64,000 bases of DNA, taken from the IMG/VR virus record IMGVR_UViG_3300046684_000188, positions 4,251 through 68,250 of that record; one strand, written 5' to 3'. Under the pieces are notes generated by a model. The model was not told the DNA's origin. It did no database searches and saw nothing but the letters and a program-made list of their open reading frames with translations. The DNA is from a virus. Positions 37,701 to 64,000 of the stretch are shown here, piece by piece; the first letter of the stretch is position 1, and each line of letters starts with the position of its first letter. The position numbers and the translations under genes were made by a program.

Positions 37701-37986
37701 TGTGGTGGGAGCATTCGGCCAGCTCACGGCAACCTGCACCTACTCCGATTCATCTGTAAGCAACTGCACGGCGGTAGCAGTCTGGTCTAACACTGGAAGC
37801 GCCTTCCACATGGACAGTGGAATACCCGGCCAGGTGGACGCGGACTCTATCGGCTCCGGAACCGCGACTGCAACTATTGGCGCTATCCACGGAAATGCTA
37901 CGGTAAATGTGATTGCAGCTCCGCCGCATATCCCCATGGGAGGACCGATCAAGGATGGTGGACCGTTCAAGATTGTGTTCCATTGA
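34783..37986 (+). CDS. Large secreted protein with Ig-like (Big_2-type) domains and central beta-helix-like region
   Basis: Signal MKKIGTVALLWTLAALGFA|Q. C-terminal ITVTPSP.SV.VG...QLTAT.TYSD...W Ig motif. Confidence 0.72.
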   Translation: MKKIGTVALLWTLAALGFAQARPAITNQQQVYALPTSAFGYQPIVMPGSTRTIPVLTWCANLQVTAYQASPSGTTMTATAHGLSIGDVLYAQGFFSSPMAFHVAQPITVTGIVDANHFIVNVNDSDTTPQTEGQATVNKNSGTNCSGKIKWEIVNTGTNTTETYKLQSIDGTQDTGFVSAPVITSTTGVVRFTIGPVEGTGSWTGDTFLGTFALNSTVKFALKATSVDDPTKSVTMTYLVAANGGGYAGLHGKAFALPGYRTIYKNRYVPLVAQVRGNVNQMVNWTIESAPAGGDATLQFATYPQAVLYSGTVSGLYRFKACPAVDSSPSACAHVSVWVSASSPPTQNTDRVEQVPCDTGAGSTVMGVTWGSILDIGKPGSPTPDLLSIPITPTGPVLLRLWNNDTVGGNPTAYHNQVQFNKPTGGPFTDQRPAFLMCGVANQTTGELPVIDADHATYNSWASQYVIGPYNVFGIIDTTGQLYPTGQTQPFSYIAIEGIHIRNVNQGYVYYSVQDGTLQPWGEATGIKPINAIQNYSMIGNRLERVSNGIFDDCNSQNNGVSHCVLDTFSEGNHLSDYGYPTTFTAHAFYKQALGSWDGLNLLDGAISGSLGTGMYSDRGTRSFHMYSRFVTNDANRQGSVIGGHSENQDAYNFLNADEYWGLNGNGNCGTYYSVSPACQAIHDGSTNLNWFDYYAALVEEHNRTDFLIGNAISVPNVYKSLGIEMTHSFWSYQPYFVGGWNREWFPENLSQNYFITYNTLEYANPSSVQSGQNLLVEDTRLLVQDVGETVSYLMQPQYYPEVYMQNNIIPMAKQTFCDYGCNLLNVNAHQISHYTTNMFGGIVTPAGNFDSNPNAFSTNGWFLIPHFSDWGNINPIVGSGGHVTGWTAPNFLTYSSYPIQQPSLVPPFTSPAVGAASACQGETCYYPPRFNAVDPLMSPFTLRTDLTTLGAYDPNGGPTLSFITVTPSPMSVVVGAFGQLTATCTYSDSSVSNCTAVAVWSNTGSAFHMDSGIPGQVDADSIGSGTATATIGAIHGNATVNVIAAPPHIPMGGPIKDGGPFKIVFH

Positions 37987-45402: not shown

Positions 45403-46680
45403 ATGGCAGATTTGCAAGCAGGCGTAGGCGCTATCGCCGTAGCCATCGAACAGGTGTACGACGATCCGCAGCTCCTTGTTGAGCGCGATGCCGTACTGGA
45501 CAAGCTCATTGCGGACAACGGACGCGCAGAAATGGTTTCCGCGCACACCTACCGCTTGACCTTTGAGGATGCCCTTCCCGGAAACGTGTCGGCCATCTAT
45601 CTCGACAACCCCAACGTCAACTTCCCGACGGCGGGCTCTTCCGATTGGCAGCAGGGCACCATGGCCCCGGTCTCCTGGGCTGTGCCGATTGGCTGGACGA
45701 AGCTGGCCGAGCTGGCCGGTAAGCCCAACCTCACGGTTGTCAACGTTGTGGCCAAGCAGATGAGCCGCACCATCGAGCGCGTCCGTCAGATGCGCGATAT
45801 GATCCTCTGCACCGGAGACGGCACCGGAACCCTCGGCACCGTAACCGCGGTAGACGCTCCGAACCTTCTCATTACGCTCAACCCGAATGACTTCGGCGCG
45901 CGCGAAGTGGTGAAGAATCAACTCGTGGACTTCTACAACGGCACCACCCTCCTCGGTTCGGCGACGGCGCAGGCTGTCAACTCCGGCGTGGGTTCGGCGC
46001 AGACTATCAAGGTTGACGCCATCCCTGGCGGCACCGCAACCAACACCATCGTCCGCGTGAACGGTCTTACGACCGGCTCTCCGACCTTCACCTACGGTAT
46101 TCCGTACTGGATGTCGAACGCGACGACGGGTATTACGGTTGGTCTGGACCGCTCGGTAGCAACCAACAACTTCATCATCTCGAACGGGCTCAATGCCTCG
46201 TCCTCGATGGTGACGGCGCCCCTGCTCCGCATCCCCTTCGATCAGATAAAGCAGTCTCTTGGTCTCGAGGCCGTAAAGTCCTCGACGTTCAAGATTCATG
46301 TTCACCCTGCGCAGAAGGCAGCTTACGAGCAGCTCGCAGGACCGCTCTTCAACATCTTCTCTACGGACGGCAAGGCGAAGGGTTATGACCTTCTCTTCCG
46401 CGACGACCCGACGGTCAACGGCGAGATTACGGTTGAGAACATCCACGCGCACATTCAGCGTTGGGATTATCTCAACACGGAGCGTTGGGGAAAGATCAAG
46501 TGGGGCAATCCCCCGTTCTGGTTCACCTCGGAAGGTCGCAAGGTCTTCCAGCAGATTGGAACCAACGGCATGATTACCTCGGGCGCGAACAGCTACATGG
46601 TTGACACCGTGAACTACTACGTTGACAACCCGAAGGCTGGAAGCTCGATTTACAACACCAAGCAGCCCACCGGTTACTAA
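45403..46680 (+). CDS. Major capsid protein
   Basis: 425 aa after the scaffold, strong SD CAGGAG, biased codon usage, GDGTG-containing insertion, downstream hairpin. Confidence 0.75.
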   Translation: MADLQAGVGAIAVAIEQVYDDPQLLVERDAVLDKLIADNGRAEMVSAHTYRLTFEDALPGNVSAIYLDNPNVNFPTAGSSDWQQGTMAPVSWAVPIGWTKLAELAGKPNLTVVNVVAKQMSRTIERVRQMRDMILCTGDGTGTLGTVTAVDAPNLLITLNPNDFGAREVVKNQLVDFYNGTTLLGSATAQAVNSGVGSAQTIKVDAIPGGTATNTIVRVNGLTTGSPTFTYGIPYWMSNATTGITVGLDRSVATNNFIISNGLNASSSMVTAPLLRIPFDQIKQSLGLEAVKSSTFKIHVHPAQKAAYEQLAGPLFNIFSTDGKAKGYDLLFRDDPTVNGEITVENIHAHIQRWDYLNTERWGKIKWGNPPFWFTSEGRKVFQQIGTNGMITSGANSYMVDTVNYYVDNPKAGSSIYNTKQPTGY

Positions 46681-49778: not shown

Positions 49779-52532
49779 ATGGACTTCGGAGACGCAAAAC
49801 CTCAAATTGTCCCTCGCTTCGGCTCTGCCGTCTTTTGGGACAATGAAACACAGTTGCCGCTAGGGCTGGCGCGGGATGTGACGAACTGCCGCTACCGCGC
49901 TCAGTCCATAGCGACACGCTGGGGCTTCGACGTGCGCCTCCGCTTTGGCATACAAGGCTCGAGGCTCACCGGTCTCCAGAACATCCGTTACCTGGCTCCG
50001 TCGAACAACGGCGACGAGATAATCAAGCTTCTCGGCTACACCGCGGTCGACGGCAATATCTACTCTGCCACCCCGTTCCAGCAGCCGAGCGTTACCCAGC
50101 TCACCACAGACGCGGCGCTGGCGAATATGAACCTCCCGCGCATCGCCAACCTCAACCCGCGCATCATTCAAGCCTTCAACAAGGGCATCGTCGCGCAGGG
50201 CAATCTCGCGCAGGGCATCGGAAACCCGATGATTTACGACCCGGAGCAGGGCACCATCGACCCCGTATCCGACAAGCCAGTCGGAACCCCATGGACGCCA
50301 TTGACCCGCTTTCGCGTCGGTCAGATGGTCTCTCCCTCCGAATTCATCACCAACGGGCTCCCGGCAATTCAGGGCGTATGGCACCCGCTCATCACCGGAC
50401 ACCTCTACCGGGTTACCTCCTACACCGGCACCGGGCAGACTGGAAGCGCACAGCCGGGTTGGCCTATCACGCCTGGCGCCATAGTCGTCTCGGGCGATAT
50501 CACCTTCACCGAGGACACTCCCACAGCCGGAGCCGGTCTCCCCGACCCCTTCGCTCCCCTCTTCGTTGCCGAGCCTTCCGACGCGGGCTCCCCGATTATC
50601 GACGGCGCATGGGTCTATGTCGTTCTGACCTACGTTTCGGCAGTGGGAGAGAGCACCAACGACCTCACCGACACCAACGGCCAACTCGACCACTCTAAAG
50701 TTTTTGTCTACCACAACCAGACAGGCGGGCCCGTCGACCTAACCATGGTGACTCCGCCGATTCCTGCAGCATTAGGCACTGGTGGACCTTACGGCGCGGC
50801 GGGCGCGACTGGATACAACGCCTATGCGTACATCATCCAGACCGGCCTCCCGGATCAGTCGAAGATTATTGACCCGACCTACTACGCGCAGTACGCGGCG
50901 AGCATAGCGGGCGCAACCAACTTCACCCTCAACGCTTACCCGACCGGCCCGGCGCTCCCAGCCGTGAATACGGCCAACATCTCCGGCGAGGGCAACGTCG
51001 ACCCCGGGCTCCGTTATATGGTCGTCATCTTCGAGACGAGGACGGCGTACCAGACCGGGTTTACCCGCTCGGCACCGATACCGGTAGACATTTCTAACAG
51101 TGGGCGGAGAATCAGGGTTCCGAATCTTCCCATCGGACCTTACAACTGCACGGCTCGAATCTGCGGGTTCACCGTCGCCGGAGCCTCCGCAGCCGGCCCC
51201 TACGCCTACGTTGCGCAGGACGACGTCGAAAGCCCGGGATTCAACCAGCCGGATATACCGATCACGTCGACCCGCATCAACGACAACACGACGACCAACA
51301 TAGAGTTCAACATCACCGACTCTTACCTCCCTGGCGCCACAGACATTACGAGCTATCTGCAGCGGGTGGAAGTGACAGACGCCTCGGACGTCTATTTCTC
51401 GAAGTCCCTGCTTCGCGTGGTCTACACCGGCATGGAGGGCTTCCCCTCCGCCTTCATCGTCTCGGACGTGCAAGACCCGGAGGCTATCCGCATCCCGGGC
51501 TCGAACCTTCCAGTGGCCGAAGCGGACGGCGACCGCTGCGTCTGCTTCCGTGAGTTCCGCGAGAACCAACTAGCTCTCAAGGAAAACTCCGGATACGCCA
51601 TCGTCCCGAATGACGGCGACCCGTCGACATGGGCGACGAATAGACTCTGGGGTGGATCCGGACCCACTGGCTCGAAGGCAGTAGCAGTAGGGCTCGACAA
51701 CGACAATCAGACCGAGTTCCTTGCTTACGCGCACCGCAGCGGCGCTTTCCGGTTTACCGGAGGACAGCCCCAGCTCATCAACCGCGAGCTGATAGGCACG
51801 CAGGACCAGCCCGGATGGTGGGACCGTATCAACTGGACCTACGGCTATCTGATTCAGGTAACGATCGACGAGAAGCGGCGGGAGCTGCGCTTTGCCGTTC
51901 CCTTCGATGGATCGCAGACGCGGAATAAGGTTCTGACCTGCAACTACCAGTACGGGTGGGAGGAGCCGGTTGTCTTCGCGGTACGCCAGGGGAGGATGAT
52001 TCCCAACCTCAACGGGCGGAAGTGGTCCCTTGACGACGTCACGGCGGAGGAAACCTGCTACGTTCCTCGGCGCTACGATCCGGACGGCTCGCAAGTCAAC
52101 GTTGCGCTCACCGAGGAGCTTATGGTCGGTGGACCGGATGGCGCGCTCCGCACCCTCAAGGAGGGGCAGTACTTCGACGATGCCTATGACGGCATTACCA
52201 AGGTCGGCTATATGTCGAAGTGGGACGGAGTCGTTGGGCCCGGAGCCTCACTTGCGCTCTACCAGCTAGAGGGCGCTTCCTGCTCGGCTATCGGGCATGG
52301 TCCCATCAACGTCTACGCACGCGACGATCAGGGCGTCTACTACCCGCTGTCGACCCCACAGAGGACGTGGACGCTTACGACGACCGAGTCGCAGCGAGAC
52401 TTTGGCGTGGTCGGCATCGAGGAGCGATGCTTCGGAATCGGGTTCGACAATGGCGGGATAGCTGATAACTGGTTTGAGATGCACGTTGCGAACCTCTGGC
52501 TTACCCCGACCTTCCAGACCAGAACGGGCTAA
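49779..52532 (+). CDS. Tail nozzle / DNA-stabilisation protein (P22 gp10 / T7 gp12-like)
   Basis: 917 aa, beta-propeller-like composition, WDRINW motif, position after the adaptor. Confidence 0.6.
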   Translation: MDFGDAKPQIVPRFGSAVFWDNETQLPLGLARDVTNCRYRAQSIATRWGFDVRLRFGIQGSRLTGLQNIRYLAPSNNGDEIIKLLGYTAVDGNIYSATPFQQPSVTQLTTDAALANMNLPRIANLNPRIIQAFNKGIVAQGNLAQGIGNPMIYDPEQGTIDPVSDKPVGTPWTPLTRFRVGQMVSPSEFITNGLPAIQGVWHPLITGHLYRVTSYTGTGQTGSAQPGWPITPGAIVVSGDITFTEDTPTAGAGLPDPFAPLFVAEPSDAGSPIIDGAWVYVVLTYVSAVGESTNDLTDTNGQLDHSKVFVYHNQTGGPVDLTMVTPPIPAALGTGGPYGAAGATGYNAYAYIIQTGLPDQSKIIDPTYYAQYAASIAGATNFTLNAYPTGPALPAVNTANISGEGNVDPGLRYMVVIFETRTAYQTGFTRSAPIPVDISNSGRRIRVPNLPIGPYNCTARICGFTVAGASAAGPYAYVAQDDVESPGFNQPDIPITSTRINDNTTTNIEFNITDSYLPGATDITSYLQRVEVTDASDVYFSKSLLRVVYTGMEGFPSAFIVSDVQDPEAIRIPGSNLPVAEADGDRCVCFREFRENQLALKENSGYAIVPNDGDPSTWATNRLWGGSGPTGSKAVAVGLDNDNQTEFLAYAHRSGAFRFTGGQPQLINRELIGTQDQPGWWDRINWTYGYLIQVTIDEKRRELRFAVPFDGSQTRNKVLTCNYQYGWEEPVVFAVRQGRMIPNLNGRKWSLDDVTAEETCYVPRRYDPDGSQVNVALTEELMVGGPDGALRTLKEGQYFDDAYDGITKVGYMSKWDGVVGPGASLALYQLEGASCSAIGHGPINVYARDDQGVYYPLSTPQRTWTLTTTESQRDFGVVGIEERCFGIGFDNGGIADNWFEMHVANLWLTPTFQTRTG

Positions 52533-54047
52533 ATGGCAAAGACAAACGTAATCCCGGTCCAGAAGATTCAGCAGGCGGCGGGCAACAACTCGGAGCTGCG
52601 CGAGATCCTGCAGGCACTCTCGAACACTGGAAACCTGCAGCTCACCGCAACCAACACGGCTATAAAGAACACCCCGCCACAGGTACGCGCAGACGTATCC
52701 TTCTTGGCCAAGTCCACGGCTTACGTTGTACAAATCACCAACCCGGGCGCGGTCTCTCCGGTATCCGCGATTCAGGCGACCGAGGCGAGGCAAAACGCTA
52801 CAGCCTCCTCGAACATCGCAAACGTGGTCTCTATCTACCACCAAATCAGGGTTGCAACCTCGCCGCGCTTCTCCATCTCGGACAACGTCCAGACCTTCGG
52901 CGGCGATACCGGCTCCACGCAAACCTACTGGGAGATAAGCTCTCTCGGCTCCGGCCTCTGGTACTTTCAGGTCCGCTCGAGCTATGACGGAGTCAACTGG
53001 AACCTCTGGAAGAACGCCAACGGCGGGCAGACGATCACCGGCCGCATTGAGGGCGTCACCGTGGAGGACGTCACCAACGGCGCGGCGGCGCTCTTCTCGC
53101 TCTCGGGAAACCAACTCTTTGCAGCGATGGCATCCTTCGCGGCAGACGGGCAGAGCATCGGCGTACCCAGCGAGCTTTATACCTCTGCGATGCTGGCGAT
53201 AGCTGGACCCAACGGATTCCAACCCCAGCCGTCCAACCTGGCGCACGGTATCATCGCCAACGAGGTAGATATCCCGACTCCGAGCCCGCTCCCGGGTGGA
53301 TCTGGACCTCCGGATTATCCGGCCTACGTCCGCGAGCAGTATCAAGACGGTCAATCGCACGTTTGGAGTGGCAGCGCGAACGTCTTCGCCTTCCTCTATG
53401 ACCCTCTGGCCGACAATTACAACCTTCAGGCGACCTCGGATGGGCTCTGGGTAGACTTCCAACTCCCCGGCGGCGCTCACTTCACCATCGGCGCAGGCGT
53501 CACCGCGGACGGCGCTGCTATCGGTCTCCCCTCCGACTTCCCATGGGTGGTGGTAAGCCGGCTGCTGTCGATCGTATCCCCCAACGTGGGGTTCAACGCT
53601 ACCCGGCAAGCTCGAGGAATCACTCAATCGGTCATCACTGGCGGGGTGATGCACTGCCAGTTCGAAGACACGACCGCACATGCTTGGTCGGCAACGGGAA
53701 ATTGGCTGGCCTTCTCGTGGAGCGCGGGATATCCGGTTGTGGGCGTCTCCGGAGGGCAGTGGCTACCGTTCGTCACTCCCAGCGGGACAAAGGTAGCGTT
53801 TGGAGCTGGGTCAGGGCCAAACGGCTCGGCTCTGGCGCTACCGGTAGCAGCGGGCGCGTTCACCTCGGACAAGATGCTCGGCATCGCTACCCCGGCGAGC
53901 GCGGCGGCGACGTCGCACCCCATGGCAGGCGTCTACAAGTGCGCCATCAATCCCGGTACACCGCCAACGCTAGAAACCACTTACACTGACACCCAGGGGA
54001 ACTACTGGAACGGTTCCGTAAACTGGATGGCCTTTGCATGGGAGTGA
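52533..54047 (+). CDS. Tail appendage protein with C-terminal tandem ~100-aa lectin-like repeats
   Basis: Three repeats ending Y/F..D...H/N.W.G/A..NW.AF.W. Confidence 0.55.
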   Translation: MAKTNVIPVQKIQQAAGNNSELREILQALSNTGNLQLTATNTAIKNTPPQVRADVSFLAKSTAYVVQITNPGAVSPVSAIQATEARQNATASSNIANVVSIYHQIRVATSPRFSISDNVQTFGGDTGSTQTYWEISSLGSGLWYFQVRSSYDGVNWNLWKNANGGQTITGRIEGVTVEDVTNGAAALFSLSGNQLFAAMASFAADGQSIGVPSELYTSAMLAIAGPNGFQPQPSNLAHGIIANEVDIPTPSPLPGGSGPPDYPAYVREQYQDGQSHVWSGSANVFAFLYDPLADNYNLQATSDGLWVDFQLPGGAHFTIGAGVTADGAAIGLPSDFPWVVVSRLLSIVSPNVGFNATRQARGITQSVITGGVMHCQFEDTTAHAWSATGNWLAFSWSAGYPVVGVSGGQWLPFVTPSGTKVAFGAGSGPNGSALALPVAAGAFTSDKMLGIATPASAAATSHPMAGVYKCAINPGTPPTLETTYTDTQGNYWNGSVNWMAFAWE

Positions 54048-55099: not shown

Positions 55100-56503
55100 A
55101 TGGCTTACGGCGAAGATTCGCTCCCGTACTACATCCAGCGTCCAGACGACGAGGAAGAGCCTACCTTTGGCGCCTCGCTTGACTCCGCTTATAAGAACGA
55201 TAGTGCGTCGGCATTGCCTCCGACTGCCATGCCGATGGGCGCGGGCGCTGGGGTTACTCCCCAACCCGCGCTGACGGCACCCTCTGTACCTGTCATTGAC
55301 CGCTCCCAGTTCGACCGCTGGAGCCGGGCGAAGCAGGTAGATGCGGTTCCCACCGATCGTAACGACGCCTCGGTAAAGCCTCGCCTCTGGGAACGCCTCG
55401 CAGGCGGGCTCTCGGCTGCGGCGATGGCCTACGGACACGTCCCGGGCGCGCTCGAGACTGGCCAGAACATCACCGACCGGCGCTACAACCGGGCAGAGGA
55501 GCAGCGGCAAGGGCGTCTCCAAGCCGACCAGACAGGGTTGGACGCCGAGCAGGCCAACATCGCCGCACAGAATCAGGAGTACGACCAGCGGCTCAAGAAC
55601 TTCAATGCGCAGGACCGGGCGCAGTACTGGCAGACGCTCAACGCCAACCGGGCGGCGCAAGAGCAGCAGCGGTTACAGGGCATCGCTCCGGGCTCGGAAG
55701 CTCCCGACGATCCGAACAACCCATTGGGCACATGGAGCGCGAGGACCATCGGCGGGCAGAAGATCGCGGTTCAGGCTCCCGACAGGTTTACCAAGTCTCC
55801 CGCGGGCATCTCCGCGCAGCGTGAAGCAGACGTCAAGCGTCTCGGTCTCAAGGGCGACGAGGCTAAGTACTACCGCGCCAACGGCAAGCTCAAGGAGCCC
55901 ACGGCGACCACCAACGTCCACATCCCGAGTGCTGAGTCGCAGGAGTATAACGACTGGAAGAAGCAGTTCACCCAGGAGACCGGTCATGCTCCGACCGCGG
56001 CGGATACACAAACATATCGTCATGGTGGTGCGGGTAAGGGTACTAAAGTCCGGATGGGGACACCCGCGCAGTTCTCCCAGCTCGACAAGGACACTCAAGC
56101 TCAGTACACCAAGGCGGAGGCTGACTATCGGGTTGCAGCGGCCAACGCGCAAACCGATGAGGAACGCGCGGCCGCGCTTGCGGACCTCAATGTTTCGAAG
56201 ACCAAGATAGGCGCAGATCACTCGGACAGGCTCCGCGACCTTGGCGGAATCCCCGCTGAGGATAGCCAAAGAAGTGGTGGGAATGCGGCCCCGGCTCCGG
56301 CAGCTCCTCCCTCACAACCTGCGCCCAAGCCGGCGGCTTCGGCCCCGGCGGCGCAGGCACCCCCACAAACCGCGCCTCAGACCGCAAAGGTCGGAAATAA
56401 AACGCTAAAAGTGGGTGATCCCGTTCAATTACCGGATGGAAGCCAAGGTATAGTTACAGGGATAAATCCGCAGACCGGTAAACCTATAGTCAAAAGGAAG
56501 TAA
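55100..56503 (+). CDS. Internal virion / DNA ejection protein (gp20-like)
   Basis: Gln/Ala-rich coiled coil, Pro linker, small C-terminal SH3-like domain. Confidence 0.55.
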   Translation: MAYGEDSLPYYIQRPDDEEEPTFGASLDSAYKNDSASALPPTAMPMGAGAGVTPQPALTAPSVPVIDRSQFDRWSRAKQVDAVPTDRNDASVKPRLWERLAGGLSAAAMAYGHVPGALETGQNITDRRYNRAEEQRQGRLQADQTGLDAEQANIAAQNQEYDQRLKNFNAQDRAQYWQTLNANRAAQEQQRLQGIAPGSEAPDDPNNPLGTWSARTIGGQKIAVQAPDRFTKSPAGISAQREADVKRLGLKGDEAKYYRANGKLKEPTATTNVHIPSAESQEYNDWKKQFTQETGHAPTAADTQTYRHGGAGKGTKVRMGTPAQFSQLDKDTQAQYTKAEADYRVAAANAQTDEERAAALADLNVSKTKIGADHSDRLRDLGGIPAEDSQRSGGNAAPAPAAPPSQPAPKPAASAPAAQAPPQTAPQTAKVGNKTLKVGDPVQLPDGSQGIVTGINPQTGKPIVKRK

Positions 56504-56509
56504 GCCCCT

Positions 56510-59500
56510 ATGGCGACGTCTCCCGTTACGCTTTCTGCAGGGGAGTTCGAGGAGGAAAATGCCTCCTCGTCTCCCGTTGCGCTCAAACAGGGTGAGTTCG
56601 ACTTTGAAGACTCCACCCCAGCGAAAGCGGCAGAGCCCGACTATGCGCACCCGGCAGGCGGCACCGCTCCCCAGCTCCCCGCGCATCCCGCGCTCGATAT
56701 GGAGGCTCCGGGCTCCCCGTTCGGCGTCAGCATCCCCAAGGAGGCGAAACAGCAGGTAGAGGCAGGCTTACGCGGCTCCTACGAGCGCAACCCGGGCCCG
56801 GTCGTATCGGTAGGCAAGCGCGCAGTAGAGGCGGCTACGCAGTTCGGCGGCGGCATACAGAAGACTTTCACCCCGACCGACGCGGAAGTCCGGGAGCGCA
56901 ACTTCCCCTCCGTACCCATGACCGACGCGGAGAAGCAGGTTGCAAACCGGCAAGCGTCCAAGGGGCTGGCCGAGTTCGTCGCAGGAGGCTCGACCGGAGT
57001 AATCGCTGCATCGGCTCCGGAGCTGATGGAGCTGGGAAGCTTGGCAGCATCGGGCAACATCGCGGCACGTTCGGCCATTATCAAGATGCTGACCTTGGCG
57101 GAGGCTGGAAACGTCGGCTCGGCGGGCGCTGGGTACGCGGCAGACAAGATGCAGTTGTCTCCCGAAACGAAGGAACTGCTTCAGACTGCGGCTTTCTTCC
57201 TCCCTAACCTCGCAGGCGTAGCCCTCGGCAAAGCTGGATTCAAGGGCGATATCGGTGTAGATCCTCAAGGCAATCCGGCTATCGGTGTTGCGGCGCCAGG
57301 CGGAGGACCATCGGCGGGCGTGCGTGGAACCCCGCAGGCTTACGAGGCAGGCGTCAGGTCCGGAGACAGCTTCTTTGGAATCCGCATCCCGCGGAGCCAG
57401 CGTCCCGGAGCCCCGGAGATGCCGAACGAGCCCGCGATGCTCCCGGGCGCGGCACAAGTCAGCCAGGCGCAGACCCAGAGCGCGGCAGTGGCAACGATCG
57501 CGCAGGCCGACGCGCTTACCAAGCAGGCGAAGGATATTGTCACCGGCAACGGCAACGGACAACCCAAGGCACCACCCGAGCCCGTTCCCCCGGGCATGGA
57601 GAAGGGCCAGGTAACGCCCAAGGTTGTAGACACCATGGCGCAGCTCATCTCCGCGGCGCCAGAGGAAATGCGCGGCTCCATGCTCATGGACGCGCACTCA
57701 CGTCTCGCCGACTGGATACAGAAGACAGGGCGCTTTGTCGGTCCTGACGGAAAGCTAGTATCGGCGGAGACTCCGGAGAAGGCTGCTGCGGCGGCGGAGA
57801 AGCTGATAAACGACGCGGTCTCCTCGCATACCAAGCAGCAGGAGACGCAAGCTAAGGAAGTAGAGAAGCAGCAGGCCGAGCAGGAGAAGGCGCTCAAGGA
57901 TCAGGCGAAGGAGGATCAGAAGGCCCAAAAAGAGGCAGAAAAGGCAGCTAACACCAAGAATGAAAACGGGTTGACCACTGATGAGCAAACCGCGGCCAGG
58001 GTGAAGACGCTTATCGAGGCGAATCCCGACCGTAAAGACCCGACCTCGATGATTCAGCGGGTTCTGAAAGTAGGGTTCGGACGGGCGCAAGAGCTTATCC
58101 AGCAGTACGAGCAGACCAAGAAGGTCACCCCGCAGGAGCCCACCCCGAGCGAGCTACAGGCAAAGCTCCAATCCCTCGCCAAGGGTGAGACGAAGCTGGT
58201 CCATATCGCGGGAGGCACGGAGGAGAAGCTTCAGCTCCCGGCAGGCATGAAGGAGATAAAGGTCTCCGGCGATACCTACATCTACGATCCGACGAAGCTG
58301 CGCGCGGCGACGATCAAAGACGCCATCAAGGCTGGAACCATCGGCGATATCACCGGCCAGGTGCAGCCCACCGAGGAGCTACAGCAGGCACCCGAGACGG
58401 TTACGGTGGAGGCAAAGAGCCCCGAGGGCGAAGTCATCCAGTCGGCAGAGGCTACCCCGGAGAGGGTGGAGGACCAGAAGGCAGAGCTTCAAGAGCGTCA
58501 CCCGGAAGCGAAGGTTGAGACCGACGACGACATAATCGACGACGATCCGAAGTACCGGCGCATCGAGAAGGCGCTCGATGAGTTCTACATGAGCAAGGAG
58601 TACCACCCGGACAGCGAGTTTTCGAAGTTCTATCCGGACGCTACGACCTACCTTCGCAGCAAGTTCACCCGGATACCGCTCGAGGATCTAACCCGCTACC
58701 ACCAGATTTACGAGCGCGACAACCCACCGAAGACGCCGGCGGCGGGCGAGCAGGCACCGGTAGAGCTGGCGGAGGGCGAGTTTGAGCACGAGGCGGAGAC
58801 CCCGCAGACTGAGAGCGCAGTACCGGCCAAGGCGGAGCCCGAGCCAAAAGAGGTTGTAGAGCAGGAAAATCCGGAGAGAGAAGGAGGTCGCGGACAATCG
58901 CCAGAGCCAGTGGCCGGTCCAGTAGTACCGGCCACTGAAACACCCACAGGAACCACAGAAGAAGCAGTGGTAGAAGGTGAGAAGCCAGGAGCCGGGCGGA
59001 AGGTTGCTCCCGCACCGGTGCAACATCCTGTTACATACCTCAGCGGCAAGGACTCTCCTGCCATCCGAGAAGCGGCGAAGCGTCGCGGCGATATCGGCCT
59101 ACTGGTCACCCCGCTCAAGCCTGACTATCTCAAGTTCGCGGACGATTACCCCGTCATTGCCATAGATAACGGCGTCTTCAGTCAGACAACACCATTCAAT
59201 GAAGGCAAGTTCCGGAAGCTGGTAGAGCAGACGGCCAAGAATCCCGAGGTAGCAAAGAAGGTCCGTTTCGTAGTGGCTCCCGACGTGGTCGGCGATGCGT
59301 CCGGAACGCTCAAGCAGTTCGACCAGTGGGCGGATTTCATCCACGAGCAGGGTCTCCCGGTTGCGCTGGCGGCACAGAACGGGCTCGAGTTCATGCCGGA
59401 GCAAATCCCATGGGACAAGATCGACGTCCTGTTTATCGGAGGCTCAACCGAATGGAAGCTCGGCCAACATACCGAGAAGTTCAAGCCAGGTGGAAAGTTC

Positions 59501-62500
59501 GAGAAGAACCCCGGATACGTCGAGGGCTCCCAAACACCTTGGTACAACCTGTTCCGCGAGGCGGAGAAGCACGATGTTCCGGTCCACATGGGCAGGGTCA
59601 ACAGCGGCGAGCGTCTCAACATCGCGGAGTACGGGCTCGGCGCAACGACGGTCGACGGAACCTTCCTCGCGTTCGGACCCGACAAGAACCAGCCACAGCT
59701 CGAGGACTGGCTCAACAAGCAAAACAGCCGTACCGATCTGGATGACAGCAGGGTAAAGGGCGACGTTGAGATCAAGACGGATAAGGGCTCGAGGGTTCGA
59801 TTCACAGATCGCACCGGCACAGATCGCATTGGCACGGTAGCGCACAATAACGAGAAAATCACCCGCATCAAGTCCGAGGGCAAAGAGTACACGACTCCCA
59901 CGAAGAACCTTCGCCCGCTTCCAGAGGAGAAGTGGAAGCCCATGAAATTCGACGATGGGCGATGGGGCGTAACTGACGGGAAGGAAGAGTTGCTCGCGGG
60001 GCAGGACCAGGCAGGGGCGCAAGCCGTTGCCGACCAGTGGAACATCGCGGCGGAGCCGAAGAGAGAGTTGAACCCTGCTCGAGACAAGAAGCTCCCGGAT
60101 AGCTTCTATCACAGCATGGAGGCGATTACACGCGGGGCGAATACGAAGGAAAAGAAAACCAAGCCCACGGCGGAGTGGCACAAGAAAGGCCCGGCTCCGC
60201 TGGTCCAGAACCCCAACGGCGGGTGGAGCTTCAAGGGGCTTGTCCCGCAGGCGCTTTATGGTGGAGCTGGACAGCCAGGTGGCTGGAAGACGAGCGAGGA
60301 GGCGCTACAGTTCGCCAAAGACAAGGGATTCGACGTCTCCGGCGTACAGGTTGTGCCGAACGCTCCCGAGGCGAAGCAGGAGCCTCCGAAGCCGACCGAG
60401 CCCGTCACCTTCACCGTCAAGAGCCTACAGACTGGCAAGGAGAGCAGCCTTTCGTTACCCGGCAAGGAACCGGCGCGCGTTCCTCCCGTCGAAGACGCTA
60501 GAGAGCAGAAGGTTACTCCAACCCCTCCATTCCACATCGCCGAGGGCGGCGACGGCTTCATGGTGAAGGACGCGGCGGGCTACATCTGGTCGAATCACAC
60601 CCACCGGGAGAAGGCGGAGCAGTCGTTTGAGCGTCTCGAGATGCACTTCCCGGCCTCAAATAATGTTGAAAAACAGGAAGTAGAGGCGCAGAATAAACCC
60701 ATACACCTAACCTCCGATGCGCTCGGCGCGGCGGGCATGGAGGGGGTAGAGACCGGAGCGGGTGTGGCTCCGGAAGGTAAGGAGGCGGCGAATGTCGAGC
60801 GTAGCGGTAGATCCGGAGCTGGACGCCCGCCTTCCGATACTGGAAGCAGAGATATCGCGCCAGTGGGAGAAGCACCTTCCGACGAAGTACAAGCGCCTCG
60901 AGGAGAGCGGAACCCTGAAGAAGGAGATTCGCTCGAAGGCGCTCCAGTGCATCAAGCTCCTGAATCAGTACGAGGAGCGGGGACTCGCAGCGAACCGCGG
61001 GGAGGAAGCGATTCAGTCCTTGATAATTCCCCCGGACAGCCTCTAGTCAAAGAGGCAAACAAGAAACTCGCTGCACCCGTCCGTCAAAATACCAAATGGT
61101 ACACACACCCCGATAACTGGCAGGCCCCCTCGGGCACCATGGGGAAGATGGACGCCAACATCGAGGCGCTCAAGATCCTGCGCGAGGTAGAGAAGAACCC
61201 TCGGCCCGTCACCGAAGAGGAGAAGGCCAAGCTCGCAAACTTCGTCGGCTGGGGTGCTCTGCAGTGGGTGTTTGATCCTTACGGCGCTCCCTACGACCAG
61301 CGCACCCGATTCCAGCAGGCGTACAACACCGTCAAAGACCTCCTTAGCATGGAGGAGATACAGGCGGCGCGTAAGTCGACGCTCAACGCCCACTACACGA
61401 GCCCCGAGTTAGTCCGAACCATGTGGGACATTATGAAGCGGTTCGGATTCAAGGGCGGAAACGTCCTCGAGCCGTCCATGGGCTCCGGCAACTTCTTCGG
61501 CATGATGCCCAAGACGATGCGCAATAACGTCTCCGCCATGGGCAACGAGCTGGACCCGGTTACGGCCGGCATCGCAAAGCTGCTGTATCCGGATGCGGCA
61601 ATCTTCAATAAAGACTTTACCCAGCTCATCATCCCGGACAACAGCATCGACCTTGCTATCTCGAACGTCCCGTTTGGCGGCAAGATTTACGACCCGCAGT
61701 ATCGCAAGCTCAACGCCAACATCCACGACTATTTCTTCGTCAAGTCTCTCGACAAGGTAAAGCCGGGCGGAGTGGTCGCGTTCATCACGTCGACCGGCAC
61801 CATGGACAAGCCCAACGACCTCATCCGTGAGGCGCTGGCGTCGAAGGCTGACCTACTGGGAGCTATCCGGCTCCCTTCGGGCGCGTTCTCGAAGAACGCA
61901 GGCACCGAGGTTACAACCGACCTCATCATCCTGCAGAAGCGGGCGCCAGGGGAGACGGCCAAGGGTCCGGACTGGCAGAAGACGGTAAAGACACAGATTC
62001 CCGACGAAGCAGACGGCACCGGCCCGATGCACGATGTTCAGCTCAACGAATACTTCGTCAAGAATCCTCACATGATGCTGGGACGCCCGGCAGTGTCGCA
62101 GATGTACTCCCGCTCTGGGTTCGCGCTCTACCCGCACGCCGAGGGCAAGATCGAAGACTACCTCGAGAAGGCGATAGCCAAGCTCCCCCGCGGCGTGATG
62201 CTCGAGGAGAAGGGAGTCGGCTTCAACCAGGCGGAGACGGTTGCGCAGTTTGCCAAGCAAAACCAACTGGACGGGCAATACGTTCTAGACGAGAAAGGCA
62301 ACCTCCGGCAGGTACAGGGTGGAAAGCTGGTCCCTGCAGAGGCAGTGATGGGAACGGACGGCAAGCCGAGCTTGCACAAGGTAAAGCGCGTCAAGGCGCT
62401 CATCGGCGTTCGTGACCAACTCAACGACCTCCTCTCCTCGATGACGACCGAGCCCGACGACGATAGGGGCAACGAGAAGGTTGCGAAGCTTCGGGAGAAG

Positions 62501-64000
62501 CTGCTCAAGGAATACAACGGGTTCGTCAAAAACTTCGGCTATCTGTCGACCTCCGCCAACGGCATCCTCGCCGAAGATCCGCACTACCCCCGCCTACTGG
62601 CGCTCGAGCATTACAACAAGGCGACCAAGACGGGTACGCCCGCCGATATCCTCGTCAGGCGGACCATCTATCCGCGGACACCGCTTACCTCCCTGGCCGA
62701 CGATCCGAAGGACGCGCTCTATCAGGTACTCGCCGAGCGCGGCTATCCCGACGTCGAGCTAATGGCGAAACTCAAGGGGGAGAAGGCGAAGGATATCGCC
62801 AAGACCCTCACCGACGTAGGGCTCGTCTATCGCAACCCCATCTCTGGCGACTACGAGATGAGGGAGAAGTACCTCTCCGGCTACGTCCGCGACAAGCTCG
62901 ACGACGCCCGCAGAGCCGTCGCGCAGGGCATGAAGGAGTATGCGCCCAACGTCGACGCGCTCGAGAAGGTCCAGCCCATAGACGTGCCTATCGCGGAGAT
63001 TGAAGTAAAGCTGGGCGCGACGTGGATTCCCACCGACGCTATCCGAGACTTCACTAACGATGTGATGGGCCAGGACAGCCCGAAGATCACCTATCACCTG
63101 GGCGAGTGGAACGTCCAAGGCTTCATCCGAACGGCGGAGAGTACCTCCGAGTACGGCACGTCCTACTATGACGCCTCGGAACTACTGAAGCTCGGGCTCA
63201 ACCAGAAAGAGCCCACCGTCATATCGAAGACAAAAGAGGGGGAGTTTACCAACGTCCCTGAAACCCTGCTGGCACGGCAGAAGCTCGAGAATATCCGCAA
63301 GGCGTTCAACGGCTGGGCATCGCAGTCAGAGAAGTGGGCTAAACCCCTCGAGAAGGCGTACAACTACGCTTTCAACAACATCGTCCTTCCGGAGTACAAC
63401 GGCTCGCATCTCACCTTCCCCGGGAAGAATGCCTCCATCACGCTCGACCCTCACCAAGTAAACATCGTTTGGCGGAACCTGATGGAAGGGCGCTCTCTGA
63501 TTGCGCACGCGGTTGGAGCGGGCAAAACCTACTCCATTATCGCGACGATTATGGAAGGGCGCCGAACCGGGCTCCTGCGCAAGGTAGTTGTCAACGTCCC
63601 GAATCACCTTGTAGAGCAGTGGGCTAAATCGTTCGCCATGCTCTACCCGGGCTCGAACGTCCTCGTTCCGACTGAGAAAGACTTCAGCGCGAAGAACCGG
63701 CAGCGGCTCATGGCGCGCATCGCAACCTCCGACTACGACGCCGTTATCATGGCGCGCTCCCAGTTCGATCGCTTCGATATCTCCGCCGAGCGCCAGGCGA
63801 AGGTGATGGACCAGATGATCGAAGAGAAGCTGCGCACCATTCAGGCGATGAAGATGACCCGGGAGGATGGGCGCACCGTCAAGCGCGAGGAGAAGGCGCT
63901 CGAGGCGCTCCGGACGAAACTGAAAAAGCTGCAGGACTCCGCGAAGGACAAGGTCATCGCGTTCGACGATACCGGCGTGGATGCCGTCTTCACCGACGAA
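56510..64000 (+). CDS. Giant polyvalent internal virion protein, DarB-like (FtsK-gamma-like, TGT/DpdA-like, N6-MTase, SNF2 helicase); 3'-truncated
   Basis: Frame from ATG 56510 is open in every segment translated and reaches the window end. STLNAHYTS, VLEPSMGSGNF, SNVPFG (MTase); AHAVGAGKT and DAVFTDE (helicase Walker A/B). Confidence 0.88.
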   Translation, partial: MATSPVTLSAGEFEEENASSSPVALKQGEFDFEDSTPAKAAEPDYAHPAGGTAPQLPAHPALDMEAPGSPFGVSIPKEAKQQVEAGLRGSYERNPGPVVSVGKRAVEAATQFGGGIQKTFTPTDAEVRERNFPSVPMTDAEKQVANRQASKGLAEFVAGGSTGVIAASAPELMELGSLAASGNIAARSAIIKMLTLAEAGNVGSAGAGYAADKMQLSPETKELLQTAAFFLPNLAGVALGKAGFKGDIGVDPQGNPAIGVAAPGGGPSAGVRGTPQAYEAGVRSGDSFFGIRIPRSQRPGAPEMPNEPAMLPGAAQVSQAQTQSAAVATIAQADALTKQAKDIVTGNGNGQPKAPPEPVPPGMEKGQVTPKVVDTMAQLISAAPEEMRGSMLMDAHSRLADWIQKTGRFVGPDGKLVSAETPEKAAAAAEKLINDAVSSHTKQQETQAKEVEKQQAEQEKALKDQAKEDQKAQKEAEKAANTKNENGLTTDEQTAARVKTLIEANPDRKDPTSMIQRVLKVGFGRAQELIQQYEQTKKVTPQEPTPSELQAKLQSLAKGETKLVHIAGGTEEKLQLPAGMKEIKVSGDTYIYDPTKLRAATIKDAIKAGTIGDITGQVQPTEELQQAPETVTVEAKSPEGEVIQSAEATPERVEDQKAELQERHPEAKVETDDDIIDDDPKYRRIEKALDEFYMSKEYHPDSEFSKFYPDATTYLRSKFTRIPLEDLTRYHQIYERDNPPKTPAAGEQAPVELAEGEFEHEAETPQTESAVPAKAEPEPKEVVEQENPEREGGRGQSPEPVAGPVVPATETPTGTTEEAVVEGEKPGAGRKVAPAPVQHPVTYLSGKDSPAIREAAKRRGDIGLLVTPLKPDYLKFADDYPVIAIDNGVFSQTTPFNEGKFRKLVEQTAKNPEVAKKVRFVVAPDVVGDASGTLKQFDQWADFIHEQGLPVALAAQNGLEFMPEQIPWDKIDVLFIGGSTEWKLGQHTEKFKPGGKFEKNPGYVEGSQTPWYNLFREAEKHDVPVHMGRVNSGERLNIAEYGLGATTVDGTFLAFGPDKNQPQLEDWLNKQNSRTDLDDSRVKGDVEIKTDKGSRVRFTDRTGTDRIGTVAHNNEKITRIKSEGKEYTTPTKNLRPLPEEKWKPMKFDDGRWGVTDGKEELLAGQDQAGAQAVADQWNIAAEPKRELNPARDKKLPDSFYHSMEAITRGANTKEKKTKPTAEWHKKGPAPLVQNPNGGWSFKGLVPQALYGGAGQPGGWKTSEEALQFAKDKGFDVSGVQVVPNAPEAKQEPPKPTEPVTFTVKSLQTGKESSLSLPGKEPARVPPVEDAREQKVTPTPPFHIAEGGDGFMVKDAAGYIWSNHTHREKAEQSFERLEMHFPASNNVEKQEVEAQNKPIHLTSDALGAAGMEGVETGAGVAPEGKEAANVERSGRSGAGRPPSDTGSRDIAPVGEAPSDEVQAPRGERNPEEGDSLEGAPVHQAPESVRGAGTRSEPRGGSDSVLDNSPGQPLVKEANKKLAAPVRQNTKWYTHPDNWQAPSGTMGKMDANIEALKILREVEKNPRPVTEEEKAKLANFVGWGALQWVFDPYGAPYDQRTRFQQAYNTVKDLLSMEEIQAARKSTLNAHYTSPELVRTMWDIMKRFGFKGGNVLEPSMGSGNFFGMMPKTMRNNVSAMGNELDPVTAGIAKLLYPDAAIFNKDFTQLIIPDNSIDLAISNVPFGGKIYDPQYRKLNANIHDYFFVKSLDKVKPGGVVAFITSTGTMDKPNDLIREALASKADLLGAIRLPSGAFSKNAGTEVTTDLIILQKRAPGETAKGPDWQKTVKTQIPDEADGTGPMHDVQLNEYFVKNPHMMLGRPAVSQMYSRSGFALYPHAEGKIEDYLEKAIAKLPRGVMLEEKGVGFNQAETVAQFAKQNQLDGQYVLDEKGNLRQVQGGKLVPAEAVMGTDGKPSLHKVKRVKALIGVRDQLNDLLSSMTTEPDDDRGNEKVAKLREKLLKEYNGFVKNFGYLSTSANGILAEDPHYPRLLALEHYNKATKTGTPADILVRRTIYPRTPLTSLADDPKDALYQVLAERGYPDVELMAKLKGEKAKDIAKTLTDVGLVYRNPISGDYEMREKYLSGYVRDKLDDARRAVAQGMKEYAPNVDALEKVQPIDVPIAEIEVKLGATWIPTDAIRDFTNDVMGQDSPKITYHLGEWNVQGFIRTAESTSEYGTSYYDASELLKLGLNQKEPTVISKTKEGEFTNVPETLLARQKLENIRKAFNGWASQSEKWAKPLEKAYNYAFNNIVLPEYNGSHLTFPGKNASITLDPHQVNIVWRNLMEGRSLIAHAVGAGKTYSIIATIMEGRRTGLLRKVVVNVPNHLVEQWAKSFAMLYPGSNVLVPTEKDFSAKNRQRLMARIATSDYDAVIMARSQFDRFDISAERQAKVMDQMIEEKLRTIQAMKMTREDGRTVKREEKALEALRTKLKKLQDSAKDKVIAFDDTGVDAVFTDE
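60666..60694 (+). promoter_or_regulatory. Putative internal promoter for the nested gene
   Basis: TTGAAA-17 nt-CAGAAT in a locally AT-rich patch inside the giant ORF. Confidence 0.5.
60792..61046 (+). CDS. Nested out-of-frame gene (84 aa), weakly TnpV-like
   Basis: SD TAAGGAGG 6 nt before ATG. MSSVAVDPELDARLPILEAEISRQWEKHLPTKYKRLEESGTLKKEI... reads as a helical globular protein. Confidence 0.65.
   Translation: MSSVAVDPELDARLPILEAEISRQWEKHLPTKYKRLEESGTLKKEIRSKALQCIKLLNQYEERGLAANRGEEAIQSLIIPPDSL

What the first reader, a model, noticed from the sequence alone, without database searches (positions are those of the whole stretch)
60660..61046. Fully nested gene with its own promoter and RBS inside the giant ORF
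Seen: a +1-frame 84-aa ORF (60792-61046) with SD TAAGGAGG and an upstream TTGAAA-17-CAGAAT. The host frame here reads as low-complexity G/R/E/S linker, as expected for dual coding, and the nested gene ends just before the MTase domain. Inference: an independently expressed inhibitor, antitoxin or chaperone for the adjacent enzymatic domains, genetically inseparable from them.
Basis: partly seen in the sequence, partly recalled or inferred. Interest (0 to 1): 0.75.

Follow-up and report, generated by a model that had tools for sequence, protein, structure and literature searches.

The report
Hidden gene inside giant phage gene
A small, well-conserved protein gene is written in a shifted reading frame inside the floppy linker of a giant phage anti-restriction-type gene, a layout that genome annotation misses and whose function is still unknown.

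Summary
Observation confirmed. The ORF 60792-61046 (84 codons) lies in the +1 frame of the giant DarB-like ORF 56510->, with AAGGAGG 6 nt upstream. It is a real gene.

Its length alone is unremarkable: fifth longest of 75 +1-frame pieces. The other evidence is strong:
- A family profile built from other phages hits it at E=1.8e-8.
- In 80 IMG/VR loci chosen only by their methylase domain, 72 give a best hit. All 72 are on the same strand, in the +1 frame, just upstream of the methylase; 52 have E<=1e-3.
- Substitutions follow the nested frame: nested dN/dS 0.12-0.31, host frame 1.5-2.2 in the overlap, 0.03-0.11 in the methylase.
- The host frame still stays open in 49 of 49 loci, against 15 expected.
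- In the window itself the GC3 pattern switches to the nested frame.
- AlphaFold gives a confident four-helix protein for the nested frame and disorder for the host frame.

The family is TnpV-like (14 of 49 members). Shine-Dalgarno signals are conserved. The proposed promoter is not (2 of 50). The function is untested.

This scan has already reported the same nested gene on other DNA at least eight times. No paper or record I examined annotates it.

The parts
56510..64000 (+). Giant DarB-like / PLxRFG-type polyvalent protein gene (host frame). It runs off the window's 3' end; 2,497 codons are seen.
   Evidence: ORF list and translation. Pfam gives a weak ResIII/SNF2 match at residues 2325-2423. 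blastn and tblastn neighbours are annotated DarB-like antirestriction, N-6 DNA methylase or PLxRFG.
60666..60694 (+). Sigma-70-like site TTGAAA-17-CAGAAT. A second site lies at 60636-60664. Weak, and not conserved in relatives.
   Evidence: 9 of 12 matches; such sites occur upstream of the nested start in only 2 of 50 loci.
60779..60785 (+). Shine-Dalgarno AAGGAGG, 6 nt before the nested ATG.
   Evidence: dG -12.1. SD-like signals are enriched at family starts: 88% of 50 unique upstream regions reach dG <= -4, against 23% of 4,435 internal ATG controls.
60792..61046 (+). Nested gene in the +1 frame: 84 codons plus TAG. It encodes a TnpV-like four-helix protein.
   Evidence: Family HMM E=1.8e-8. 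Nested-frame dN/dS 0.12-0.31. GC by codon position .631/.381/.786, the same pattern as real genes here. AlphaFold2 pLDDT 80.4, helices 14-28, 30-39, 42-62 and 67-78.
60791..61045 (+). The same DNA read in the host frame: a low-complexity linker, predicted disordered, that must only stay open.
   Evidence: Host-frame dN/dS 1.5-2.2 here. Open in 49 of 49 family members against 15.2 expected. pLDDT about 30-35 and no secondary structure at residues 101-185 of the folded 386-residue segment.
61049..62248 (+). Start of the methylase module of the giant protein. Motifs VLEPSMGSGNFFG and NVPFGG are read directly from the translation.
   Evidence: Alignment A2 with 8 IMG/VR homologues, 36-44% identity. 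454 relatives found in IMG/VR. pLDDT above 85 from about 61120 onward.

Best explanation
The 84-codon ORF is a real protein-coding gene of the TnpV-like family. It is written in the +1 frame over the DNA that, in frame 0, encodes a disordered linker of the giant DarB-like virion/anti-restriction-type protein, immediately upstream of its methylase-helicase module.

**Shown:**
- Both frames are kept by selection.
- The nested frame carries the amino-acid constraint. The host frame is constrained only to stay open.
- The arrangement is conserved in most homologous phage, prophage and plasmid loci sampled.

**Inferred:**
- Ribosomes start independently at ATG 60792, using the strong internal SD on the giant gene's own (probably late) mRNA rather than on a dedicated transcript. 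This gives a free 9.5-kDa four-helix protein.
- The layout probably arose when a reading frame was extended across a pre-existing small gene that sat in front of the methylase-helicase gene, fusing the flanking modules.

**Speculative (about 1 in 3):**
- The small protein works together with the methylase-helicase module, as an accessory, assembly or regulatory factor.
For: **1. Homology**
- tblastn of the ORF hits only DarB-like genes of other phages (11 records).
- An HMM of 29 family members from other phages scores the window ORF at 33.8 bits, E=1.8e-8 among 9,375 six-frame pieces.

**2. Frame and place are conserved**
- From the annotated CDS starts, the match offset is +1 in 9 of 10 cultured phage or plasmid records: Atu_ph08, PEp14, Pavtok, Stean, SopranoGao, POI1126, VvAW1, Mwe-JY07 and a Brucella plasmid. 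PBC5 is the exception (arithmetic mine).
- 21 of 22 IMG/VR loci found with the nested protein keep the layout.
- In 80 IMG/VR loci picked by the methylase domain alone, 72 give a best hit. All 72 are on the + strand, in the +1 frame, upstream of the methylase. 52 have E<=1e-3 and 8 give no hit.
- 47 of 53 bacterial-genome loci keep the layout too.

**3. Selection**
- For pairs at least 90% identical, differences per site at nested codon positions 1/2/3 are 0.060/0.036/0.147. In the methylase control the host positions give 0.028/0.006/0.232.
- dN/dS is 0.12-0.31 for the nested frame, 1.5-2.2 for the host frame in the overlap, and 0.03-0.11 for the host frame in the methylase.
- Window against its closest relative L035: 51% identity in the nested frame, 35% in the host frame, on the same bases.

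**4. The host frame is kept open**
- It is open in 49 of 49 loci. Synonymous-codon permutation predicts 15.2 and resampling predicts 2.9. The third frame is open in 0 of 49.

**5. Start signals**
- ATG (37) or GTG (13) sits at the picked family starts, and SD energies are far stronger than at control ATGs (Mann-Whitney p=2.5e-20).
- All six members of the window's subfamily start with ATG behind a GGAG-type motif.

**6. Signal in the window itself**
- GC by codon position is .631/.381/.786 in the nested frame and .776/.624/.376 in the host frame. The flanks in the host frame give .659/.45/.729 and .591/.38/.806.

**7. Folds**
- The nested frame gives pLDDT 80.4 with four helices. The host frame over the same DNA gives pLDDT about 30-35 and no structure.

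**8. Family**
- Pfam TnpV PF14198 matches 14 of 49 members, best E=7.7e-10.
- 2,252 representative clusters match at E<=1e-3 in 1.84 billion proteins.

**9. Not an assembly error**
- Contigs of four other runs cover 60792-61046 with no differing letter and no indel.
Against: - There is no direct evidence of translation or of a protein product, and no RNA run holds the stretch.
- The window ORF does not reach any Pfam threshold on its own. Its best hit is DUF7599 at E=0.046. Membership rests on the family profile.
- 8 of 80 methylase-selected loci gave no hit, and 20 gave only weak hits (E 1e-3 to 10).
- P1 darB itself has no such ORF.
- PBC5 reads the homologue in frame with the upstream half of the giant gene.
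- The pairwise statistics use related, non-independent sequences. Some of the 80 loci are the same contigs that trained the profile.
- Start codons of divergent members were picked by a heuristic. Three picks in the window's subfamily had to be corrected by eye.
- The promoter is not conserved.
- For the functional guess: apparently free-standing homologues sit in other contexts. One lies beside McrBC genes and one near a Mob_Pre relaxase gene. A link to the methylase-helicase module is therefore not obligatory.
Confidence: 0.85

Rival explanations
1. The nested frame is reached by programmed +1 ribosomal frameshifting from the giant frame. This would give a truncated giant protein (N-terminal half) ending in the TnpV-like domain, and no free small protein.
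For: - In PBC5 the N-terminal half is fused in frame to the homologue and stops there.
- The PHROG profile phrog_938 (2,185 positions) ends with this segment at positions 2084-2185.
- In some loci the +1 frame is open for tens to more than 100 codons upstream of the family start.
Against: - In the window a stop closes the +1 frame 14 codons before the ATG. In PEp14, Pavtok, Stean and SopranoGao it is 2 codons before.
- The family start is ATG or GTG in all 50 picks, and it carries SD signals. A shift site would need neither.
- PBC5 differs from its close relative Atu_ph08 by a single-base deletion just upstream. That is 1 exception in 22 loci.
- No slippery motif was searched for.
Confidence: 0.06
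2. A chance open frame in a GC-rich alternative frame, with no product. The apparent conservation merely reflects conservation of the giant protein.
For: The ORF is not unusually long: fifth of 75 +1-frame pieces. Many long alternative-frame ORFs exist in this 59-60% GC window.
Against: - The host frame is the unconstrained one here (dN/dS 1.5-2.2), and the nested frame is constrained (0.12-0.31).
- GC3 switches to the nested frame.
- The frame is kept even at about 51% GC, in VvAW1.
- All 72 best hits fall in one of six frames.
- The nested frame gives a confident fold.
Confidence: 0.02
3. The giant ORF is not one protein. The open host frame across the small gene is not translated through, and the locus is really three genes: an upstream half, the small gene, and a methylase-helicase gene.
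For: - In several Verrucomicrobiota loci the host frame opens only about 100-250 nt upstream of the small gene.
- In PBC5 the gene is split.
- The linker shows no amino-acid constraint.
Against: - The host frame is open through the small gene in 49 of 49 loci against 15.2 or 2.9 expected, and the third frame in 0 of 49.
- In the window it is open for 4.3 kb upstream without a stop.
- In 76 of 80 IMG/VR loci it is open from the first codon of the locus.
- In phage JC1 the homologous 4,515-residue protein was found in virions with 51 unique peptides. I read passages and Table 6 of PMC9144972. Those passages do not say where the peptides map.
Confidence: 0.05
4. Sequencing or assembly error: two compensating indels have put an in-frame domain out of frame.
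For: The window comes from a metagenome-type virus record.
Against: Contigs of four other runs are identical over the ORF, with no indels. More than 100 independent loci show the same two-frame layout. The nested frame has its own start and stop.
Confidence: 0.01

Closest known systems
Embedded spanin gene Rz1 inside Rz (phage lambda and many others; the embedded class is described for Bcep22-like phage JC1 in PMC9144972, passages read)
   Same: A complete gene lies on the same strand in a shifted frame, wholly inside another phage gene. It has its own start signals, and both frames are maintained.
   Different: Rz and Rz1 are two structured proteins that bind each other. Here the host frame is a disordered linker with no sequence constraint. 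The embedded gene belongs to a family that also appears free-standing elsewhere, and no partner is known.
Hepatitis B virus polymerase 'spacer' overlapping the preS/S envelope gene
   Same: A tolerant, unstructured spacer of a large multidomain protein shares its DNA with a structured protein read in another frame. The constraint sits on the overlapping gene.
   Different: A different virus world and different proteins. Here the small gene is fully nested and about 85-130 codons long. This is an analogy of architecture only.
TnpV, Pfam PF14198 (small protein of Tn4451-type conjugative and mobilisable transposons; function unknown, from general knowledge)
   Same: Sequence family: 14 of 49 nested proteins match at E<=0.01, best 7.7e-10. 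PEp14's copy matches at E=4e-4. Similar size, all-helical, resident on mobile elements.
   Different: The window's own copy does not match the Pfam model. TnpV genes are described as ordinary free-standing genes, not nested ones.
PG0816 of Porphyromonas gingivalis, PDB 2apl (structural-genomics protein)
   Same: The best structural match of the model: VIA-align Z 7.6, rmsd 2.7 A over 70 of 84 residues; Foldseek probability 0.92, TM 0.58. One of 49 members touches Pfam DUF1896 at E=0.005.
   Different: Z under 8 is within the range of common helical arrangements according to the tool's own note. It has no sequence match in the PDB search and no known function. It is a lead only.
Phage P1 DarB with its small helper genes (ulx, ddrA, hdf)
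   Same: The host gene is the same methylase-helicase type of virion anti-restriction protein, and P1 uses small accessory proteins. P1 annotation was seen. The roles are recalled from Piya et al. 2017, which I did not read here.
   Different: P1 darB contains no homologue of the nested ORF, and Ulx does not match the family profile (best E 0.16-3).

Membership tests
Same-strand out-of-frame embedded (overprinted) gene pair | The whole ORF lies inside another ORF on the same strand in a different frame. | tested here: met
   60792-61046 lies inside 56510-64000 at offset +1.
Same-strand out-of-frame embedded (overprinted) gene pair | Both frames are maintained by selection across relatives. | tested here: met
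   Nested dN/dS 0.12-0.31. Host frame open in 49 of 49 against 15.2 expected. 72 of 72 best hits fall in the +1 frame.
Same-strand out-of-frame embedded (overprinted) gene pair | The embedded gene has its own translation start signals. | tested here: met
   AAGGAGG-6 nt-ATG in the window. SD enrichment across the family: 88% against 23%.
Same-strand out-of-frame embedded (overprinted) gene pair | The embedded product is actually made. | not testable with these tools
   No RNA run was listed. No proteomic or ribosome-profiling data were within reach.
TnpV (Pfam PF14198) | Match to the Pfam model at or above its gathering score (27 bits). | tested here: inconclusive
   The window ORF gives no TnpV hit even at E<=10. 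14 of 49 family members match at E<=0.01, best 7.7e-10. The window ORF is tied to those members by the family HMM at E=1.8e-8.
Programmed +1 frameshift product (two C-termini from one gene) | The alternative frame is open from the shift site and has no need of a start codon or SD. | tested here: not met
   A stop lies 14 codons upstream in the window and 2 codons upstream in four cultured phages. ATG or GTG plus SD is conserved.
Programmed +1 frameshift product (two C-termini from one gene) | A conserved slippery or shift-prone motif at the junction. | not tested
   No motif search was run.
DarB-like / polyvalent methylase-helicase protein (the host gene) | An N6-adenine methylase module followed by an SF2/SNF2 helicase in one polypeptide. 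| tested here: met
   Motifs VLEPSMGSGNFFG and NVPFGG are read. Pfam ResIII E=6.2e-5 at residues 2325-2423. 36-66% identity to the methylase modules of IMG/VR homologues. Neighbours are annotated DarB-like.
Gene with its own sigma-70 promoter | A promoter-like site upstream that is conserved in relatives. | tested here: not met
   The site is present in the window. Only 2 of 50 loci have any such site 5-200 nt upstream, against about 2.4% expected by chance.

The most novel reading that the evidence does not exclude
The TnpV-like protein is an obligatory second component of the DarB-like methylase-helicase anti-restriction module. It could be a loader, packaging adaptor or activity switch. Its gene is the older one. 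The giant polyvalent genes of phages and plasmids were then built by reading a frame straight across it. The overlap would lock the two partners together genetically and tie the small protein's synthesis to translation of the giant mRNA. That would define a widespread, unannotated two-protein system and a general route of 'fusion by read-through over an intervening gene'.
Probability: 0.2. Interest if true: 0.8.

Novelty: new variant of a known kind. Interest (0 to 1): 0.62.

Why it matters
Giant DarB-like genes take up a fifth or more of these phage genomes (22% in JC1, PMC9144972) and are annotated as one gene. This work shows a second gene inside them.

- **Spread.** The nested gene is under purifying selection and conserved in loci attributed to Proteobacteria, Verrucomicrobiota, Chlorobiota, Planctomycetota and Myxococcota, many of them metagenome bins, and in a Microcystis phage.
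- **Missing from annotation.** None of the 21 phage records and 1 plasmid record found with the PEp14 copy lists a separate CDS under the match.
- **Consequences for experiments.** Knock-outs, truncations or domain swaps of the giant gene will silently hit a second gene. Proteomic searches cannot find a protein that is not in the database.
- **Evolutionary interest.** It is an unusually clean bacterial and phage example of dual coding, in which a disordered linker is the cheap frame.
- **What would raise its value.** The function is unknown, which limits the present value. A shown partnership with the methylase-helicase module would raise it considerably.

Tried and rejected
**Function and partner searches**
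- Complex prediction of the nested protein (A3) with the first 800 residues of the methylase module (A5) returned 'no answer', score 0.00. This is no evidence either way.
- NCBIfam gave only three single-member chance-level hits among 49 members, and PADLOC gave none.
- The sequence search of PDB chains gave only designed helical repeats, E 0.01-0.8.
- The ESM Atlas gave only unnamed clusters scoring 0.81-0.87. One of them carries TnpV on 11% of its members.
- The P1 Ulx idea, that the nested protein might equal P1's small DarB helper, is rejected. Ulx and all P1 darB frames score E>=0.16.

**Expression and population data**
- No RNA holder was listed for 59500-62500.
- The four DNA runs laid on the stretch showed no variants, so a within-population test was not possible.

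**Relatives and context**
- A scan of IMG/VR with the window's own methylase peptides found nothing. An alignment was needed instead.
- Most of the small 'free' proteins looked up from the representative search (10 of 150 listed) sit on contigs of 1-2 kb, so they do not show free-standing genes.
- Ten other large ORFs of the window had no PHROG hit (E<=1e-5) and no Pfam hit (E<=1e-3), so the phage type could not be named from them.

**Literature**
- Searches were: 'DarB + overlapping gene + phage', 'PLxRFG', 'Bcep22 + BcepIL02', 'TnpV', 'Ulx + DarB', 'DUF1896', and 'polyvalent proteins + conjugative elements + methylase + helicase'.
- I saw only listings and abstracts, except for passages of PMC9144972 and PMC5512222.
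- Neither of those two papers mentions a nested gene in the passages found. PMC5512222 has no occurrence of 'TnpV' or 'overlapping'.
The peptide tables of virion proteomes such as JC1's might bear on whether the giant protein is continuous.
Full report
**What is there**

The window carries a giant ORF on the + strand, 56510 to beyond 64000 (2,497 codons seen). Inside it, at offset +1, ATG 60792 opens an 84-codon frame that ends at TAG 61044-61046. AAGGAGG sits at 60779-60785, 6 nt before the ATG.

The host frame reads this DNA as NVERSGRSGAGRPPSD... It is 78% G/R/E/S/A/P/D and 12% hydrophobic, in the lowest 2.7% of 85-residue windows of the giant protein. The methylase module, with motifs VLEPSMGSGNFFG and NVPFGG, begins 2 nt after the nested stop.

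On length alone the ORF is not special. Its 98-codon stop-to-stop piece is fifth of 75 +1-frame pieces in the giant ORF.

**Signal in the window itself**

GC content by codon position is .659/.45/.729 upstream of the overlap and .591/.38/.806 downstream, both in the host frame. Inside the overlap the host frame gives .776/.624/.376, while the nested frame gives .631/.381/.786. The coding signature therefore jumps to the nested frame for exactly this stretch.

Contigs of four other public runs cover the ORF with no differing letter and no indel. The layout is therefore not an assembly slip.

**Relatives**

tblastn with the 84-residue product found weak matches (E 0.004-0.8) in 11 phage records, all inside DarB-like genes. 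ORF lists of three of them showed the key point:
- Atu_ph08 and PEp14 carry an ATG-started ORF of 102-105 codons (MNLNNW...HWKE...) in the +1 frame of their giant CDS.
- The PEp14 copy finds 21 phage records and one Brucella plasmid.
- From the annotated CDS starts, the offset is +1 in 9 of 10 records with an annotated giant CDS.
- PBC5 is the exception. Its upstream half runs in frame into the homologue and stops. It differs from Atu_ph08 by a one-base deletion just upstream.
- In Itty13 the giant gene is not annotated on that strand at all.
- No record lists a separate CDS under the match.

**A sample not biased by the small gene**

A scan of IMG/VR with the nested alignment gave 22 loci. 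In 21 of them the host frame is open across the whole 6-kb locus.

To avoid choosing by the small gene, I then scanned with an alignment of the methylase module only (A2). This found 454 relatives, and the best 80 were kept. An HMM built from 29 nested proteins of the earlier loci was run against all six-frame pieces of these 80 loci and the window, 9,375 pieces in all:
- 72 of 80 loci gave a best hit.
- Every one of the 72 is on the + strand, in the +1 frame relative to the methylase, and ends 9-900 nt upstream of it.
- 52 have E<=1e-3, 20 are weaker, and 8 gave none.
- The window scored E=1.8e-8.

Two caveats apply. Some of the 80 are the same contigs as the training loci. A second profile that included these loci raised the count to 68 of 80 at E<=1e-3, but it is partly circular.

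The window's nearest relatives are 47-60% identical to it over 800 residues of the methylase module. They keep a clearly related ORF...EDARLPILEAEI..W..H.P....

A scan of bacterial genomes gave 53 loci in Alpha-, Beta- and Gammaproteobacteria, Verrucomicrobiota, Chlorobiota, Planctomycetota and a Myxococcota bin. In 47 of them the host frame covers the small gene.

**Which frame is under selection**

On codon alignments of 52 family members, differences pile up at nested codon position 3, which is host position 1:
- For pairs at least 90% identical, the nested positions 1/2/3 differ at 0.060/0.036/0.147 per site.
- The same pairs in the methylase region give 0.028/0.006/0.232 at host positions 1/2/3.
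- Nei-Gojobori dN/dS is 0.12-0.31 for the nested frame, 1.5-2.2 for the host frame in the overlap, and 0.03-0.11 for the host frame in the methylase.
- For the window against L035, the same bases are 51% identical as nested protein and 35% as host protein.

The host frame nevertheless stays open within the small gene in 49 of 49 members. Permuting synonymous codons predicts 15.2 open, and resampling codons from local usage predicts 2.9. The third frame is open in 0 of 49.

Both frames are therefore kept. One is kept for its protein sequence and the other merely for continuity. These pairs and loci are related, so the p-values are not exact, but the direction is the same in every identity band.

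**How the small gene is probably expressed**

- The family start is ATG (37) or GTG (13) in the 50 unique upstream regions. 88% have an SD duplex of -4 kcal/mol or stronger in the -20 to -4 window, against 23% of 4,435 internal ATGs in the same loci.
- Some starts of divergent members were picked heuristically. For the window's subfamily I checked them by eye, and all six have ATG behind a GGAG-type motif. The window's is the strongest at -12.1.
- Stops close the +1 frame 14 codons before the ATG in the window. They lie 2 codons before it in PEp14, Pavtok, Stean and SopranoGao. This argues against entry by frameshifting.
- Promoter-like sites upstream of the small gene occur in only 2 of 50 loci, the chance level. 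The likely template is therefore the giant gene's own mRNA.
- Translation itself is not shown.

**What the product is**

- AlphaFold2 with a 49-row alignment gives a four-helix protein with pLDDT 80.4 and pTM 0.68.
- The same DNA in the host frame, folded within a 386-residue segment, has pLDDT about 30-35 and no secondary structure. The methylase module right after it reaches above 85.
- Pfam TnpV matches 14 of 49 members, best E=7.7e-10. The window's copy does not match on its own.
- The best fold match is PG0816 (2apl): Z 7.6, 2.7 A over 70 residues. This is within the range of common helical packings, and the protein has no known function.
- A profile search of 1.84 billion representatives finds 2,252 clusters at E<=1e-3, mostly of 70-150 residues.
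- In six of the 53 genome loci the host frame does not cover the homologue. One is a 262-residue protein next to McrBC genes, and one lies near a Mob_Pre relaxase gene.
- P1 darB has no such ORF, and P1 Ulx is unrelated.

**Reading**

- **Shown:** a conserved, purifying-selected gene overprinted on a linker, with start signals.
- **Inferred:** independent initiation on the giant mRNA, and an origin by extending a frame across an older small gene. The grounds are that the small family looks free-standing elsewhere and that the host frame has no sequence constraint.
- **Speculative:** a working partnership with the methylase-helicase module. The only argument is constant adjacency, both in phage giants and in the Verrucomicrobiota-type loci, where the small gene overlaps the start of the methylase-helicase frame.

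**Known or new**

Embedded out-of-frame genes are a known kind (Rz1 in Rz; PMC9144972). TnpV is a known family of unknown function. What differs here is that the structured, older-looking gene is the nested one, and the giant host reads it as a spacer. The closest analogy of architecture is the hepatitis B polymerase spacer over preS/S (general knowledge).

I found no mention of this nested gene in seven literature searches, nor in the passages read of two papers.

Earlier notes of this scan describe the same nested gene in at least eight other genomes, phage and plasmid. They agree with what I found independently before reading them, but they are not independent evidence.

Noticed in passing
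window 22666-56503 (ORFs 22666-24429, 24938-26872, 29078-32983, 34783-37986, 41375-43774, 43825-45360, 45403-46680, 49779-52532, 52533-54047, 55100-56503): Ten large + strand ORFs (425-1,301 codons) upstream of the giant gene have no PHROG hit at E<=1e-5 and no Pfam hit at E<=1e-3. The phage's presumed structural genes are very distant from described families.
   Followed up: partly
window 60636-60694: Both + strand sigma-70-like sites found in the 8 kb scanned lie side by side in one AT-richer patch about 100-130 nt upstream of the nested ATG. This is not seen in relatives. It could be a window-specific internal promoter or chance.
   Followed up: partly
window ~58037-58138 (residues 510-543 of the giant protein): A weak FtsK_gamma (winged-helix DNA-binding) match, E=1.6e-6 and 28.2 bits, just under Pfam's cut-off of 30.6.
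   Followed up: no
L006 (Pseudomonas phage Itty13, NC_070969.1 5545-8823): The record annotates two 'hypothetical protein' CDSs on the strand opposite the DarB-like frame that carries the nested-gene homologue. This is probably a mis-annotation of the giant gene in a 68% GC genome.
   Followed up: no
L001 (Sinorhizobium phage PBC5, NC_003324.1): The giant gene is annotated as two DarB-like CDSs. A single-base deletion relative to Atu_ph08 puts the upstream half in frame with the nested gene. It is either a real split or an old sequencing error.
   Followed up: partly
L143 3974-8202 (Pseudidiomarina sediminum contig): A free-standing 262-residue protein with the TnpV-like domain at its N-terminus lies directly upstream of McrB-like (AAA_5) and McrC genes. 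This is a possible link of the family to restriction or defence loci.
   Followed up: partly
L151, L153-L164, L167 (Verrucomicrobiota contigs): Here the methylase-helicase frame opens only about 100-250 nt upstream of the small gene instead of kilobases upstream. The small gene therefore overlaps the 5' end of a gene of more than 1,400 codons: a second architecture of the same pair.
   Followed up: partly
L049, L056, L063, L066, L071, L081, L103 (IMG/VR loci): These methylase-selected loci gave no hit, or only a misplaced weak one, with either profile. They may lack the nested gene or carry a very divergent one. L066 and L103 have +1-frame ORFs with a helical look at the right place.
   Followed up: no
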